Positions 59,280 to 63,523 are shown, counted from the stretch's first letter. The stretch: DNA of 64,000 nucleotides from Candidatus Nomurabacteria bacterium (GCA_943350875.1 CALRAL010000001.1:165017-229016), one strand, 5' to 3'. A program made the numbers and translations. Notes: a model not told the origin generated them from the letters alone.

Positions 59280-59640
59280 TTTTTATATTACCAAAAGGAT
59301 CATTCCCCATTTTGAGGCCAACAGACTTTTTTGTAGCAAATGTCGTCTTTATCTCTTTAAAACCAAGTGCATATGAAGTAGGAAGATCTACCTTACTAGA
59401 TAATGACAAATAATTGAGCTCTAAATCCCCGACTTCGTTTGAAAGAGCTCTGGCTTGTGTCTCAAAAGTCCTTCTTTCTACTATGTTAAAGACCATATTT
59501 GCAAGGATGACTACATATACAAGACCCAAAACACCCATAGATAGAAGCATAAAACGAAACATCTTCTCCCTGAGATGAGTATCATTCATCACATCTATAT
59601 TCCCAGCATAATTCTTTATTTTTAAACTTATTTGTTTCAT
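59260..59640 (-). CDS. ftsL: FtsL-like small bitopic division protein
   Basis: 126 aa, single TM (FMLLSMGVLGLVYVVILANMVF) then a coiled coil; position between rsmH and ftsI. Confidence 0.45.
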   Translation of the reverse strand: MKQISLKIKNYAGNIDVMNDTHLREKMFRFMLLSMGVLGLVYVVILANMVFNIVERRTFETQARALSNEVGDLELNYLSLSSKVDLPTSYALGFKEIKTTFATKKSVGLKMGNDPFGNIKIAKNEI

Positions 59641-59738
59641 TTTTTTTATTATTTTTTATATTTTTTATATTTTTTATATTTTTTATATTTTTTATATTTT
59701 TTATATTTTTTATATTTTTTATATTTTTTATATTTTTT
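59641..59738. repeat. Tandem array of about 10 copies of the 9-mer TTTTTTATA between rsmH and ftsL
   Basis: Direct reading: ttttttata repeated head-to-tail from about 59652 to 59732 with degenerate flanking copies. Confidence 0.85.
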
Positions 59739-61165: not shown

Positions 61166-61263
61166 AAATTTTCTTTATTTCCAAATTTCCCACTTCTTCC
61201 CACCTGATATACATTATAAACCACATAAGAAAATACCACCAAGCCCTAACTGTGGATAACTAA

Positions 61264-61287
61264 AAAGCCCCCATTTAAGGGCTTTTT
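61264..61287. terminator. Bidirectional terminator hairpin AAAGCCC-CCATTTAA-GGGCTTT
   Basis: GC stem with A/T runs on both sides. Confidence 0.5.
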
Positions 61288-61291
61288 AGTT

Positions 61292-61312
61292 CCGCTAGGT
61301 CTTTCCTAGCGG
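61292..61312. repeat. REP CCGCTAGGTCTTTCCTAGCGG
   Basis: Perfect 8-bp stem palindrome; identical copies at 62189 and 63503, inverted copy at 62891. Confidence 0.8.
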
Positions 61313-61474
61313 AAAATATAATTTTTATTTAACTTTTTACTCTGGCAAAGCTGGAGGAACTAATCCTTGATCATCCCCATTCTTTGCTGAGTTTCCTTTT
61401 TGTATTAAGAAGTAACCTACAATTAACAAAGTGACTACTATAACGATATAAATAATTTTTTTCATAAAAATAAA

Positions 61475-62122
61475 TTAATTAAATACTGGTAATGGTGGTG
61501 GTAATGATCCTCCTTTTTCTCCAAACTTACATTCTTTTTCTACATTGATTGCAAATCCAAGACCAATTTGTTTTAGACCTTTGACTGATTCAAAAGTATA
61601 TCCTTTTAAATTAACCCATCTCTCACTGCCTTCTGAATTATATGCAAAAGCTTTTTTTACAATACAATCACCAGTCACATCATCAAAATTCTTGCCAACC
61701 ATTTCTGGAGTGATAAATTTTAAATTCCAACCTGCAAAAAGACGATGTGTTTGCCCGTAATCAACTTTAAATGTTATATCCTGTTCGGATGGATAATAAT
61801 ACCAATAAGTACCTACTATGCGTCCTTCGGTTTTATCTATATCAATCCCTCTGTCTTTAAAATCTTTTTGAATTTGTGACTTTTCTGTCTCAGTAGGACG
61901 TGGTTTTATAGGAAAATATCTATTTAAAATTGGAAGATACGCAAAAACAGAAGTAGCAGGAGGCATTAAAGTAGTGTTAAAATCACTACCTTCACCCAAA
62001 AGATACCAACCTTTAAAAACATGGATAGTCTGACTATATGCAGGTCTATCTGCAAAAACTTTAGAACCAAACATTATTGTTAAAATAAACACAATTAAAC
62101 AAATTGCTATTTTTTTGTTCAT
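61475..62122 (-). CDS. Hypothetical secreted protein (215 aa)
   Basis: Signal peptide MNKKIAICLIVFILTIMFGSKVFA; a 42-aa signal-peptide ORF lies downstream at about 61340-61468. Confidence 0.5.
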   Translation of the reverse strand: MNKKIAICLIVFILTIMFGSKVFADRPAYSQTIHVFKGWYLLGEGSDFNTTLMPPATSVFAYLPILNRYFPIKPRPTETEKSQIQKDFKDRGIDIDKTEGRIVGTYWYYYPSEQDITFKVDYGQTHRLFAGWNLKFITPEMVGKNFDDVTGDCIVKKAFAYNSEGSERWVNLKGYTFESVKGLKQIGLGFAINVEKECKFGEKGGSLPPPLPVFN

Positions 62123-62128
62123 ACGGTA

Positions 62129-62158
62129 ATGCTACCCCCCCCCAACAGGTTTTGTCAA
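62129..62158 (-). promoter_or_regulatory. Putative promoter TTGACA - 18-nt spacer containing G9 (C9 on the + strand, 62135-62143) - TAGCAT, immediately upstream of the secreted-protein gene
   Basis: Read on the minus strand: TTGACAaaacctgttgggggggggTAGCATtaccgtATG. Confidence 0.4.
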
Positions 62159-62188
62159 AAAATAATGTTAATAACAATTTCCACTATT

Positions 62189-62210
62189 CCCGCTAGGTCT
62201 TTCCTAGCGG
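62189..62210. repeat. REP CCCGCTAGGTCTTTCCTAGCGG, immediately 3' of the RAYT gene
   Basis: Identical to 61292 and 63503. Confidence 0.8.
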
Positions 62211-62214
62211 AGAA

Positions 62215-62871
62215 CTAGCGGAGGAAATTAATCCACTCTAAAATTTCCTTTTGGAAAGTTTTTTTAGCAGGAAAATAATCAGGAAATGGTTTTAGATCCA
62301 GGATATTTTTCTCTTTACGTTCTACTCTTAAATAATCCAAATAACTTGAATATTGATATTCTTCTAAAAATTTTAAAACCCTAGATTTATTCTGTATCCC
62401 CATTTCTTTCCATTTTGGCTCAACTAATTTTACAGGATTTAAATGTATATAAGAAAAAAGATATTTGAGATATCGATCTGTATCAATATGTTCAGCTTTA
62501 AATTTACCTTCAAATAAACTACCTGAACGTTTATATTTTTTATTAAAATACATTACATATGCAGTAACTAATTTTTGCATAAATTTACTAATATTCCCCT
62601 CATCAGTATCTGTAATTAAAATATGAAAATGATTTGGCATTAAACAATATGCCCCAATGTTGACAATTTGATCACCACGAGAAGACTCAAATAAACTTTG
62701 ATTTTTATTTAAATTATCTATTTTAAAATCTCTAGAAGAATTACAGGCAAAAAGTAACCCTATAAACCTACCATAATCAGATTTATCTTTAAAAATGAGT
62801 TGTTTGCTATTACCGCGATTATATATGTGATAATACTCACCTTTTACAAAATTAACTTTCCTTAAGGACAT
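62215..62871 (-). CDS. rayT: REP-associated tyrosine transposase (RAYT; IS200/IS605-like Y1 HUH transposase)
   Basis: HUH motif YCLMPNHFHILI and catalytic Tyr motif YIHLNPVK; aligns with E. coli RAYT (VVLPEHMHCIW ... YIYINPVKHG); flanked by REPs. Confidence 0.8.
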   Translation of the reverse strand: MSLRKVNFVKGEYYHIYNRGNSKQLIFKDKSDYGRFIGLLFACNSSRDFKIDNLNKNQSLFESSRGDQIVNIGAYCLMPNHFHILITDTDEGNISKFMQKLVTAYVMYFNKKYKRSGSLFEGKFKAEHIDTDRYLKYLFSYIHLNPVKLVEPKWKEMGIQNKSRVLKFLEEYQYSSYLDYLRVERKEKNILDLKPFPDYFPAKKTFQKEILEWINFLR

Positions 62872-62890
62872 AATTTTAATTATATCACCT

Positions 62891-62911
62891 CCGCTAGGAA
62901 AGACCTAGCGG
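62891..62911. repeat. REP (inverted copy) CCGCTAGGAAAGACCTAGCGG, immediately 5' of the RAYT gene
   Basis: Reverse-complement loop (AAAGA vs TCTTT) relative to the other copies. Confidence 0.8.
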
Positions 62912-62996
62912 TAGAAATACCACCAAGCCCTAGCTGTGGATAACTTTGCTCGGTTAATTACTATGGTTTTAAATAAGATTTTGGTATATTTACACT

Positions 62997-63476
62997 ATGC
63001 CTAGCGAGAGAATAGACACATCAAAAATGGGATTAGCTTCTGACCCTTTGGCTCAAATTAAAAATTGGGAATTAATGGCTAACGATATAGAAAAGTATCA
63101 AAAGATGAAGGAACTGATTATCGAATCTTTTAAATCGATCCTTGATTTGATGCCGCCTCAAGTCAAGATTACTGTCCAAGACAAAATCAACAACTTGAAT
63201 AATACAGATGCCATTTATGAGTATGAAGAATTAATAGGTTTTATTAAATTAGCAAAAATCCACTCTGAAAGTCTACTAAGTAGTCTAGATGATAAAGATA
63301 TACCTGACTATGCTGCCCCTTATAAAGCCGTAAGTTACTTAAATACAGTAATTAGTTTAACTATAGAAAATGACTCAGAAAATAACCTTAATCAAATGGG
63401 TGTTGCCTTTGTTGGGCGATTACATGCTTCAAGAGATCAAATAGAGAAGATCGATTGGGCTGAAGGTTGGAAATAA
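62997..63476 (+). CDS. Hypothetical protein (159 aa) bracketed by REPs
   Basis: Clean ORF; no recognisable motif. Confidence 0.4.
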   Translation: MPSERIDTSKMGLASDPLAQIKNWELMANDIEKYQKMKELIIESFKSILDLMPPQVKITVQDKINNLNNTDAIYEYEELIGFIKLAKIHSESLLSSLDDKDIPDYAAPYKAVSYLNTVISLTIENDSENNLNQMGVAFVGRLHASRDQIEKIDWAEGWK

Positions 63477-63502
63477 GTTTTATTTAGAAGATAAAATCTG
63501 TA

Positions 63503-63523
63503 CCGCTAGGTCTTTCCTAGCGG
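63503..63523. repeat. REP CCGCTAGGTCTTTCCTAGCGG overlapping the lysS stop codon
   Basis: Identical to 61292. Confidence 0.8.

What the first reader, a model, noticed from the sequence alone, without database searches (positions are those of the whole stretch)
62120..62160. Homopolymeric C9/G9 tract inside a promoter spacer of a secreted-protein gene: candidate phase-variation switch
On the minus strand the sequence upstream of ORF 61475-62122 reads TTGACA-aaacctgtt-GGGGGGGGG-TAGCAT-taccgt-ATG. That is a -35 consensus, an 18-nt spacer that is half poly-G, and a -10-like hexamer only 6 nt from the start codon (leaderless-type). Poly-G/C tracts in -35/-10 spacers are a classic slipped-strand phase-variation mechanism (e.g. 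Neisseria, Haemophilus, Bordetella fimbrial promoters). Loss of one G would give the optimal 17-nt spacing. A C9 run is conspicuous in a low-GC genome, and the regulated gene encodes a signal-peptide protein followed by a small signal-peptide ORF. Both are plausible surface or host-interaction factors.
Basis: partly seen in the sequence, partly recalled or inferred. Interest (0 to 1): 0.6.

Follow-up and report, generated by a model that had tools for sequence, protein, structure and literature searches.

The report
Poly-G promoter switch in CPR bacterium
A run of nine G's sits inside the promoter of a secreted-protein gene in an ultra-small (Patescibacteria/CPR) bacterium, and the same promoter module in related genomes differs only in its number of G's, so it is probably a slippage-driven expression switch, a mechanism known from pathogens but apparently unreported in this phylum.

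Summary
On the minus strand, 62158-62120 reads TTGACA-aaacctgtt-G9-TAGCAT-taccgt-ATG. It is the only G/C run longer than 6 in 64 kb (about 0.07 expected).

The promoter reading is well supported. In this Patescibacteria lineage a -10 hexamer ending exactly 6 nt before the ATG is the modal gene-start geometry, and SD motifs are rare. This promoter is the window's only perfect-TTGACA, weak -10, no-TG case, so spacer length should matter.

The 47-nt module (GTTATTAACA box, -35, 9 nt, poly-G, -10) recurs 77% identical in a distant Nomurabacteria genome, upstream of an unrelated secreted protein. A related copy has G11. Four assemblies of that Nomurabacteria organism are otherwise identical over 2.9-11.8 kb and differ only here (G9, G10, G10, G10). 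All runs of 9 or more in 1.15 Mb of related DNA are intergenic and lie beside REP hairpins.

Limits: the window's own tract is G9 in all three available assemblies, a sister strain lacks the module, and no reads, TSS or expression data exist.

Verdict: a likely homopolymer promoter-spacer phase-variation switch, and a new member of a known kind in an unreported phylum.

The parts
62135..62143 (-). Poly-G tract (G9 on the minus strand, C9 on the plus strand); the variable half of the promoter spacer
   Evidence: only G/C run longer than 6 in 64 kb. Homologous tracts are G9/G10 and G11.
62153..62158 (-). -35 hexamer TTGACA (perfect consensus)
   Evidence: Among the leaderless-type promoter candidates of the window listed, it is the only one with a 6/6 -35.
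62129..62134 (-). -10 hexamer TAGCAT (T1, A2 and T6 kept; no TG extension), ending 6 nt before the ATG
   Evidence: d=6 is the modal -10-to-ATG distance in the window and in 80 related loci.
62129..62175 (-). 47-nt promoter module GTTATTAACA-N11-CAAAA-N3-GTT-G9-TAnnAT, including the near-palindromic box GTTATTAAC at 62167-62175
   Evidence: 36 of 47 positions identical, ungapped, to L084 10765-10811. nhmmer E=4e-10 and 2e-9 for the two copies (these are the two sequences the profile was built from, so they match by construction). Absent from sister strain L015.
61475..62122 (-). ORF215: secreted 215-aa protein with a signal peptide, two GWN(L/F) motifs, two invariant Cys and a C-terminal PPxLP tail; predicted leaderless mRNA starting at or near the A of the ATG
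   Evidence: 390 HMMER relatives; alignment; AF2 pLDDT 87.8; no PDB fold match.
61337..61465 (-). ORF42: small protein with an N-terminal hydrophobic helix and a VPPALPE tail, co-transcribed with ORF215; conserved in the sister strain
61258..61291 (.). Terminator-like hairpin AACTAAAAAGCCC-N8-GGGCTTTTTAGTT closing the ORF215-ORF42 unit; its sequence is symmetric, so it reads the same on both strands
   Evidence: I22, 13-nt arms, 100% complementary.
62190..62210 (.). REP2 hairpin CCGCTAGG-TCTTT-CCTAGCGG, 46 nt upstream of the tract, between the RAYT gene and the module
61292..61312 (.). REP1 hairpin downstream of ORF42
62891..62911 (.). REP3 hairpin (inverted orientation) upstream of the RAYT gene
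   Evidence: I3: 23 nt, 100% complementary to REP2.
63503..63523 (.). REP4 hairpin between ORF159 and lysS
62215..62871 (-). RAYT-like Y1 (IS200-type) tyrosine transposase gene, itself of leaderless type (TGaTATAAT + 7 nt + ATG)
   Evidence: Pfam Y1_Tnp 3e-9; NCBIfam REP_Tyr_transpos 5.6e-12, below cutoff; more than 7900 homologues, Patescibacteria.
61231..61261 (.). 31-nt direct repeat D2a (contains TGTGGATAACT, a DnaA-box-like motif); brackets the whole block together with D2b
   Evidence: (D2, 97%).
62915..62945 (.). 31-nt direct repeat D2b

Best explanation
The G9 tract is the length-variable half of the 18-nt spacer of a sigma-70-type promoter (TTGACA / TAGCAT). This promoter fires a leaderless mRNA for a secreted 215-aa protein and a 42-aa membrane peptide. 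Unlike the other leaderless-type promoter candidates found in the window, which mostly rely on a good -10 (often with a TG extension) and have poor -35 hexamers, this one has a weak -10 without TG and a perfect -35. RNA polymerase must therefore contact both hexamers, and the spacer length sets promoter strength. Slipped-strand mispairing in the poly-G run during replication adds or removes a G. That changes the spacer (17, 18, 19 nt and so on) and heritably but reversibly shifts expression of the surface or secreted protein among high, intermediate and off states. The tract is part of a 47-nt promoter module (GTTATTAACA box, -35, 9 nt, poly-G, -10). The module occurs next to REP hairpins and RAYT genes in other Paceibacteria/Nomurabacteria upstream of unrelated secreted proteins, and it was acquired by this strain after its split from a sister strain. 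Shown here: the sequence architecture, the leaderless geometry, homology of the module, and tract-length polymorphism in the homologous copy. Inferred: slippage in this strain, the effect on transcription, and the biological role.
For: The tract is unique in 64 kb. The -10 ends exactly at the lineage's modal 6-nt distance from the ATG: 10 of 57 starts in the window against 1.1% background, p=1e-9, with SD-like motifs at 4 of 57; and 141 of 965 ORFs in 80 related loci, with SD-like motifs at 46 of 965. It is the only 6/6 -35 among the window's leaderless-type promoter candidates and lacks the TG extension that many of the d=6 candidates have. The module is 36/47 identical to L084, with an identical GTTATTAACA at the same distance, although the RAYT proteins are only about 52% identical and the downstream genes are unrelated. 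L020 has TTGCCA-N9-G11-TATTAT upstream of a secreted beta-helix protein whose N-terminus is homologous to L084's protein. Four assemblies of the L084 organism show 0 mismatches over 2.9-11.8 kb and a single indel, in this tract: G9, G10, G10, G10. Five A/T runs of 8 and a C6 in the 11.8 kb shared by L084 and L097 are invariant between those two assemblies. In 1.15 Mb of related loci the only three G/C runs of 9 or more are all intergenic, lie upstream of secreted or envelope genes (including a Wzy_C O-antigen-ligase-like gene), and are within 50 nt of a REP hairpin. The sister strain has the same RAYT-REP-ORF215 synteny without the module, so the tract is not structurally required. The products are secreted.
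Against: The window's own tract is G9 in all three other assemblies that carry it, which are the same strain from one study. No read-level data were available. G9 versus G10 between consensus assemblies could in principle be homopolymer sequencing or assembly error, and the four Rifle-type assemblies may not be fully independent samples. No observed state has the canonical optimum of 17 nt (18, 18, 19, 20). Only one such tract occurs in 64 kb, so there is no evidence of a large set of phase-variable loci (a phasome). Promoter function and TSS are inferred from sequence only, and sigma-factor specificity in CPR bacteria is not characterised. L032's G9 lies upstream of the spacer rather than in it. 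Homologues of both target protein families exist with ordinary promoters.
Confidence: 0.6

Rival explanations
1. Static promoter. The module is a real promoter, but in this strain the G9 run is simply a fixed, GC-rich spacer, a fossil of an ancestral element, and does not switch at a biologically meaningful rate.
For: All assemblies of the window strain show G9. G9 is at the low end of tract lengths that slip frequently (general knowledge). There is only one tract in 64 kb.
Against: The homologous module varies G9/G10 in an otherwise invariant background and is G11 in a related copy. A run this long is strongly disfavoured by base composition, yet it recurs at the same promoter position in three genomes.
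Confidence: 0.2
2. By-product of REP/RAYT activity. The poly-G run is a scar, target or end structure created by REP/RAYT-mediated DNA transactions and has no regulatory role. Its position between promoter-like hexamers is incidental.
For: All four tracts of 9 or more lie 7-48 nt from a REP hairpin, and three lie within 130 nt of a RAYT stop codon.
Against: 76 of 80 RAYT loci have no such tract. The REP-to-tract distance varies, whereas the -35 / 9 nt / poly-G / -10 register is constant in three of four cases. The REP sequences differ completely between genomes while the module is conserved. The 80 loci were selected through the RAYT gene, which inflates the apparent association.
Confidence: 0.1
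3. Sequencing or assembly noise. The G9/G10 difference among assemblies of the L084 organism reflects Illumina homopolymer error or assembler choice, so there is no real evidence of hypermutability anywhere.
For: G/C homopolymers of 9-10 are error-prone on short-read platforms (general knowledge). Only consensus sequences were compared.
Against: Consensus calls average many reads. Three assemblies agree on G10 and one gives G9. No other position differs in up to 11.8 kb, including six other homopolymers between L084 and L097. A diverged copy carries G11. Three assemblies of the window strain reproducibly give G9, so the base-calling is not random at this length.
Confidence: 0.07
4. Transcribed element. 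The tract lies in a 5'UTR made from an upstream promoter or by read-through from the RAYT gene, and acts as a G-rich ribosome-binding or RNA-structure element 12 nt before the ATG.
For: All genes here are co-oriented, and REP2 lacks a T-run after the stem. GGGGG can pair with the anti-SD sequence through G-U wobble (inference).
Against: SD-like motifs are nearly absent in this lineage (4 of 57 and 46 of 965). A 12-nt spacing is long. The perfect -35 and the correctly placed -10 with exact d=6 geometry are then unexplained. In L084 and L020 the tract is about 41-47 nt upstream of the ATG and again directly abuts a -10 hexamer.
Confidence: 0.03

Closest known systems
Bordetella fim2/fim3/fimX promoters (C-stretch plus conserved 'fim box')
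   Same: A homopolymeric C/G tract sits inside the promoter of genes for surface structures. The tract is part of a conserved promoter element shared by several genes. Tract length differs between strains, and a single-base change (C7 versus C8) altered fimX transcript levels about fourfold (PMC1891110).
   Different: Bordetella tracts are longer (up to about 19) and the promoters are activator (BvgA) dependent and serve paralogous fimbrial genes (my own knowledge for BvgA). Here the module precedes unrelated genes in different genomes, drives a leaderless mRNA, sits next to REP/RAYT elements, and no activator is known. The GTTATTAAC near-palindrome is only a candidate operator.
Neisseria meningitidis porA / opc poly-G/C tracts in the -35/-10 spacer
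   Same: A poly-G/C run makes up much of the spacer, and gain or loss of one base gives high, intermediate or no expression of an outer-membrane protein (own knowledge; PorA phase variation is cited in PMC5084427).
   Different: A different phylum and lifestyle. Neisseria has dozens of such loci, while only one is seen in this 64-kb window. Switching is experimentally proven in Neisseria and untested here.
Mycoplasma hyorhinis vlp promoters (poly-A tract in the spacer)
   Same: A reduced-genome, host-dependent bacterium uses a homopolymer in the promoter spacer to switch surface lipoproteins on and off (own knowledge).
   Different: Poly-A rather than poly-G. The vlp genes are a paralogous family with a shared promoter and 5' end, and they are not linked to REP/RAYT.
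REPtrons (RAYT gene flanked by REP hairpins; E. coli, Pseudomonas)
   Same: A Y1 HUH-type transposase gene is flanked by inverted copies of a short GC-rich hairpin, and further copies lie nearby. The hairpin sequence changes with the RAYT in different genomes.
   Different: REPs are not dispersed in this window: 4 copies, all within 2.3 kb. The NCBIfam RAYT model scores below its cutoff. No REPtron that I know of has been linked to a homopolymer promoter switch.

Membership tests
Homopolymer (SSR) promoter-spacer phase-variation switch | G/C homopolymer long enough to slip (roughly 7-8 or more) and far longer than base composition predicts | tested here: met
   G9; the only run longer than 6 in 64 kb; about 0.07 expected.
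Homopolymer (SSR) promoter-spacer phase-variation switch | Tract lies between the -35 and -10 hexamers of the promoter of the regulated gene | tested here: met
   Met at the sequence level. TTGACA-N9-G9-TAGCAT, with the -10 at the lineage's modal leaderless distance. The TSS has not been mapped experimentally.
Homopolymer (SSR) promoter-spacer phase-variation switch | Tract length is polymorphic within or between populations of the same strain (this locus) | tested here: inconclusive
   G9 in the window and in three other assemblies of the same strain. These are consensus sequences only, from one study, with no reads.
Homopolymer (SSR) promoter-spacer phase-variation switch | Tract length is polymorphic in homologous copies of the element | tested here: met
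   G9, G10, G10 and G10 in four otherwise identical assemblies of the L084 organism. G11 in the related L020 module.
Homopolymer (SSR) promoter-spacer phase-variation switch | Length changes alter transcription reversibly and at high frequency | not testable with these tools
   Needs reporter assays, RT-qPCR or metatranscriptomes, and fluctuation or read-level measurements.
Homopolymer (SSR) promoter-spacer phase-variation switch | Regulated gene encodes a surface-exposed or secreted product | tested here: met
   Signal peptide and a conserved secreted family. The homologous modules precede secreted PTL_trimer or beta-helix proteins.
Leaderless mRNA gene (bacterial type) | -10 element about 6-7 nt upstream of the start codon, no SD, ATG start | tested here: met
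   TAGCAT + 6 nt + ATG. The d=6 peak is 10 of 57 starts in the window (p=1e-9) and 141 of 965 ORFs in related loci. SD-like motifs occur at about 5-7% of starts.
Leaderless mRNA gene (bacterial type) | Mapped TSS coincides with the A of the ATG | not testable with these tools
   No transcriptome data are available.
REPtron (RAYT + REP) | Y1/HUH tyrosine transposase of the RAYT type | tested here: inconclusive
   Pfam Y1_Tnp 3.3e-9, above its cutoff. NCBIfam REP_Tyr_transpos scores 45.8 bits against a cutoff of 80. Sources name close homologues RayT.
REPtron (RAYT + REP) | Gene flanked by inverted REP hairpins | tested here: met
   62190-62212 and 62889-62911, 23 nt, 100% complementary. The same arrangement occurs in relatives.
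REPtron (RAYT + REP) | REPs dispersed in many copies through the genome | tested here: not met
   Only 4 exact copies in 64 kb, all within 61292-63523. The rest of the genome was not available.

The most novel reading that the evidence does not exclude
The 47-nt element (GTTATTAAC box, -35, 9 nt, poly-G, -10) is a portable 'switch promoter' cassette that travels with REP/RAYT elements between Patescibacteria genomes and is captured upstream of unrelated surface-protein genes. It would give these ultra-small episymbionts ready-made contingency loci for varying the proteins they use to contact hosts. This would be the first repeat-mediated phase variation described in the CPR, and a new functional link between REPtrons and gene-expression switching.
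Probability: 0.25. Interest if true: 0.8.

Novelty: new member of a known kind. Interest (0 to 1): 0.62.

Why it matters
Patescibacteria (CPR) make up a large share of bacterial diversity. They mostly live attached to host cells and are almost entirely uncultured, so little is known about how they regulate their surface. Full-text searches of the held library found no report of repeat-mediated phase variation in this phylum. They also found no paper treating leaderless gene organisation in the phylum; the only co-mentions of 'leaderless' with CPR were incidental.

If the switch is real, it shows that environmental, non-pathogenic, genome-reduced symbionts use the same stochastic bet-hedging strategy as mucosal pathogens. 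It also points to specific secreted proteins as candidate host-interaction factors: the ORF215 family, the PTL_trimer and beta-helix fibre-like proteins, and a Wzy-like enzyme. The hypothesis can be tested directly from existing metagenomic reads.

A practical by-product concerns annotation. Gene callers mis-place starts in these leaderless genomes (199 versus 215 aa and 267 versus 275 aa), and this removes signal peptides from predicted proteins.

Tried and rejected
- The word-indexed homology search for ORF215 found nothing. That wrongly suggested an orphan; the exhaustive HMMER search found 390 relatives.
- The exact-protein look-up of the 215-aa form found nothing, because the public calls use the 199-aa start.
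- The search for related loci with the single ORF215 protein found no relative in the GTDB species genomes or the JGI metagenomes.
- Two viral-contig pattern scans were empty.
- Foldseek against the PDB gave no meaningful fold match for ORF215.
- Pfam and NCBIfam give no family for ORF215.
- Rfam shows no known RNA at the site; there are two sub-threshold hits elsewhere.
- The TTGACA...G-run segment has no second copy in the window.
- I considered that the DnaA-box-like TTATCCACA in the 31-nt repeats might mark an origin. Perfect boxes do not cluster in the window and are only modestly enriched near RAYT genes (6 of 80 loci), so this was not pursued.
- I considered that G8 runs in related loci might be the same element. 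They are the stems of GC-rich hairpins in higher-GC genomes, not promoter spacers.
- I rejected a poly-G sequencing artefact of two-colour chemistry, because the tract is internal, has unique flanks, and is reproduced in independent assemblies.

Full report
**1. Observation**

The ATG opens a 215-aa ORF (61475-62122), which is followed by a 42-aa ORF (61337-61465).

The window has 35% GC. Apart from this C9/G9 run, no G or C run exceeds 6 bases, and a first-order Markov model expects about 0.07 runs of this length. The simple consensus scan reports the site as TTGACA/18/TAGCAT with 10 of 12 matches. That scan finds about as many promoter-like sites as in shuffled sequence, so on its own it proves nothing.

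**2. Organism and neighbourhood**

All local genes are on the minus strand: lysS, a RAYT-like Y1 transposase gene (62215-62871), ORF215, ORF42, then mraZ-rsmH-ftsL-PBP. The RAYT protein has more than 7900 homologues. The named ones are all Patescibacteria: Paceibacterota, Nomurabacteria and 'Parcubacteria'.

A 21-nt hairpin, CCGCTAGG-TCTTT-CCTAGCGG, occurs exactly four times, all within 61292-63523. Two copies flank the RAYT gene in inverted orientation, as in a REPtron. One copy (REP2, 62190-62210) lies 46 nt upstream of the tract, and another (REP1) follows ORF42. A symmetric terminator-like hairpin (61258-61291) closes the ORF215-ORF42 unit. A 31-nt direct repeat (61231-61261 and 62915-62945) brackets the whole block of RAYT gene plus cassette.

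**3. Is it a promoter? The leaderless test**

The -10-like hexamer ends 6 nt before the ATG, so I asked whether that geometry means anything in this genome.

| Measure | Window | 80 related loci |
|---|---|---|
| Gene starts / ORFs examined | 57 | 965 |
| TATAAT match of at least 5/6 ending exactly 6 nt before the ATG | 10 (background 1.1%, binomial p = 1e-9) | 141 (next best, d=7: 54; about 1-1.5% at non-peak offsets) |
| TANNNT at that position | 13 (background 2.7%, p = 3e-9) | not counted |
| SD-like motif upstream | 4 | 46 |

Leaderless transcription from a -10 placed 6 nt upstream of the ATG is therefore the dominant arrangement in this lineage, and TAGCAT-taccgt-ATG has exactly that geometry.

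Most of the window's leaderless-type promoter candidates have a good -10, often with a TGn extension, and a poor -35. The ORF215 promoter is the exception. It has a weak -10 (4/6, keeping T1, A2 and T6), no TG, and the only perfect TTGACA in the set. A promoter built this way depends on the -35, and hence on spacer length; that step is inference from established sigma-70 promoter biology.

The 215-aa start is confirmed by a family alignment in which all 31 relatives begin M(N)KK plus a hydrophobic signal peptide at the same column. Public gene calls use an internal Met (199 aa) and so lose the signal peptide.

**4. What the gene encodes**

A word-indexed search found nothing. An exhaustive HMMER search found 390 relatives, 24 of them at E of 1e-10 or better. 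The family consists of secreted proteins of about 210-230 aa with two GWN(L/F) motifs, two invariant cysteines and a C-terminal PPxLP(N) tail. The C-terminal half also ends some proteins of 1000-2300 aa. ORF42 ends in a similar VPPALPE.

An AlphaFold model is confident (pLDDT 87.8, pTM 0.78) but matches no solved structure. Pfam and NCBIfam give no family. 'Secreted, function unknown' is as far as the evidence goes.

**5. Same strain, other assemblies**

Exact-protein look-ups found the locus on contigs from one study: ENA ERZ27280321 and ERZ27280317, and Logan ERR5863125 and ERR5863126. Those that overlap the window are 100% identical to it. The three assemblies that include the tract all show G9. 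The consensus length is therefore reproducible, but these contigs give no independent evolutionary comparison and no read-level information.

**6. A sister strain lacks the module**

Two short contigs from other samples, L015 and L016, carry a copy of ORF215 that is 82-88% identical, with the same synteny: RAYT 3' end, REP, gene, ORF42, REP, terminator, mraZ promoter.

Their REP-to-ATG interval is about 20 nt shorter and has neither TTGACA nor a G run. It reads ...tagTATTGTtgtcttATG, which still has a TANNNT at d=6. So the -35/poly-G segment was gained or replaced recently in the window strain, and it is not needed for the gene to exist.

In the sister strain the gene is also interrupted at about codons 83-98 by foreign DNA, so it is dispensable there.

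**7. The module recurs elsewhere, with different tract lengths**

I used the conserved RAYT gene as an anchor to fetch 80 loci (1.15 Mb) from species-representative Patescibacteria MAGs and surveyed their homopolymers. There are only three G/C runs of 9 or more. All three are intergenic and RAYT-proximal (55, 128 and 2021 nt from the gene), and all lie within 50 nt of a REP hairpin.

- **L084** (Nomurabacteria RIFCSPHIGHO2_01_FULL_37_25) reads GTTATTAACAaaatctgTTTGCAaaataagtt-G9-TATTAT. This is 36/47 identical, without gaps, to the window's GTTATTAACAttatttttTGACAaaacctgtt-G9-TAGCAT, including an identical 10-mer box at the same distance.
- **L020** reads TTGCCA-aagtcctgc-G11-TATTATtag....
- **L032** has a G9 run 8 nt after a REP pair. 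It lies upstream of, not inside, the spacer of a leaderless promoter for a Wzy_C (O-antigen-ligase-like) membrane protein.

The genes behind the L084 and L020 modules are not ORF215 relatives. They are secreted proteins with homologous N-termini: one carries a PTL_trimer domain and the other a right-handed beta-helix. The RAYT proteins of the window and L084 are only about 52% identical, and their REP hairpins are unrelated in sequence. The promoter module is thus better conserved than its surroundings and is attached to unrelated cargo.

**8. Direct evidence for length instability, in the homologous copy**

A metagenome scan with a pattern built from the positions shared by the window and L084 returned one contig, L097 from JGI Ga0209542. 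Over 11,765 bp it has zero mismatches to L084 and one gap, an extra G in the tract. Two further NCBI MAG contigs of the same organism (MFTZ01000005 and MFVJ01000026) are likewise identical over 3.8 and 2.9 kb except for G10 in place of G9.

The shared 11.8 kb holds five A/T runs of 8 and a C6, and none of them differs between L084 and L097. Across all copies, the observed spacer lengths are 18 (window), 18 and 19 (L084 organism) and 20 (L020).

**9. Interpretation**

It now rests on three things:
- a lineage-wide leaderless promoter geometry;
- a conserved module;
- tract-length polymorphism as the sole difference between assemblies of one organism.

The evidence is still indirect for this particular locus. 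Its tract is G9 in every available assembly. The polymorphism elsewhere is between consensus sequences. No state with a 17-nt spacer was seen. Transcription has not been measured.

I put the probability that this tract functions as a phase-variable, or at least hypermutable and expression-tuning, promoter element at about 0.6. The main alternatives are a now-static spacer (0.2), a REP/RAYT by-product without regulatory function (0.1), homopolymer noise (0.07) and a transcribed 5'UTR element (0.03).

**10. Comparison with known systems**

The mechanism is of the kind described for Bordetella fim2/fim3/fimX. There a 'C-stretch' forms part of a conserved promoter element together with a 'fim box', and C7 versus C8 changed fimX transcript levels about fourfold (PMC1891110). 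From my own knowledge, the same kind of mechanism operates at Neisseria porA/opc and at Mycoplasma vlp.

The differences here are the phylum, the leaderless transcript, a module attached to unrelated genes in different genomes, and the consistent adjacency to REP hairpins and RAYT genes.

Full-text searches found no paper linking phase variation with Patescibacteria; the single co-mention is unrelated. They found no paper treating leaderless organisation in the phylum, where the few co-mentions are incidental, and none linking RAYTs to homopolymer promoter switches. The library is incomplete, so this is absence of evidence only.

**11. Verdict**

- **Observation:** confirmed.
- **Interpretation:** partly supported. 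The architecture and the hypermutability of the element are supported. Switching at this locus and its effect on expression are untested.
- **Novelty:** a new member of a known kind. A more novel reading, a REP/RAYT-associated portable switch promoter, is not excluded (p about 0.25).
- **Interest:** 0.62.

Noticed in passing
whole window; L017-L096: Leaderless gene organisation appears to be the rule in this lineage. A strong -10 ends exactly 6 nt before the ATG at 10 of 57 gene starts in the window and 141 of 965 ORFs in related loci, and SD-like motifs occur at only about 5-7% of starts. Gene callers consequently mis-place starts (ORF215 called as 199 instead of 215 aa; the L084 protein as 267 instead of 275 aa), which removes signal peptides.
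   Followed up: yes
window 61231-61261 and 62915-62945: A 31-nt direct repeat (97% identical) brackets the whole block REP3-RAYT-REP2-promoter-ORF215-ORF42-REP1-terminator. It contains TGTGGATAACT, the DnaA-box consensus TTATCCACA on the other strand. The same motif lies beside the RAYT/REP in the closest relatives (L011-L014) and directly abuts the module in L084. It is only modestly enriched across the 80 loci (6 against 1.6 expected). Its meaning is unknown: a duplication from insertion, or a regulatory site.
   Followed up: partly
window 61292-61312, 62190-62210, 62891-62911, 63503-63523: Four copies of a REP-like hairpin (CCGCTAGG-TCTTT-CCTAGCGG) cluster within 2.3 kb around a RAYT-like gene, and there are none in the other 61 kb. 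In relatives the hairpin stem co-varies with the RAYT: the same stem in close relatives and unrelated hairpins in distant ones.
   Followed up: partly
L015 about 430-657; L016 1-143; window 61865-61877: In the sister strain the ORF215 homologue is interrupted at about codons 83-98 by foreign, GC-richer DNA carrying an SD-led zinc-ribbon-like ORF. The Logan assembly of the window strain from ERR5863126 breaks into two contigs at the same place, which hints at a polymorphic insertion in the population.
   Followed up: partly
window 59629-59738: A tandem array of about 12 copies of a 9-nt unit (TATTTTTTA; TAAAAAATA on the coding strand) spans the end of rsmH and the start of the ftsL-like ORF. 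The copy number is identical in the other assemblies of this strain. It is another simple-sequence repeat that could vary in length.
   Followed up: no
window 61166-61200 (minus strand, upstream of mraZ): Direct repeats GTGGGaagaaGTGGGaaattTGGAA with about 10-nt periodicity lie upstream of mraZ and are conserved in the sister strain. They resemble the repeated MraZ operator boxes known from other bacteria (own knowledge).
   Followed up: no
window 61475-62122 and 61337-61465; alignment A3: The ORF215 family (390 HMMER hits) ends in a conserved PPxLP(N) tail, and the small downstream ORF42 ends in a similar VPPALPE. The C-terminal half of ORF215 also forms the C-terminus of proteins of 1000-2300 aa. 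The confident AF2 model has no PDB match, so this may be an uncharacterised CPR surface domain or sorting motif.
   Followed up: partly
window 62166-62175; L084 10765-10774: GTTATTAAC(A), immediately upstream of the -35, is a near-perfect palindrome (GTTA-T-TAAC) and is identical in the window and L084. It is a candidate operator for an unknown regulator, analogous to the Bordetella 'fim box'.
   Followed up: no
L032 10694-10702: A G9 run lies 8 nt after a REP pair downstream of a RAYT gene, about 25 nt upstream of the -10 of a leaderless promoter for a Wzy_C/TPR membrane protein. The tract lies outside the spacer, so if it is functional it would act differently, for example through the UP-element or -35 region.
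   Followed up: no
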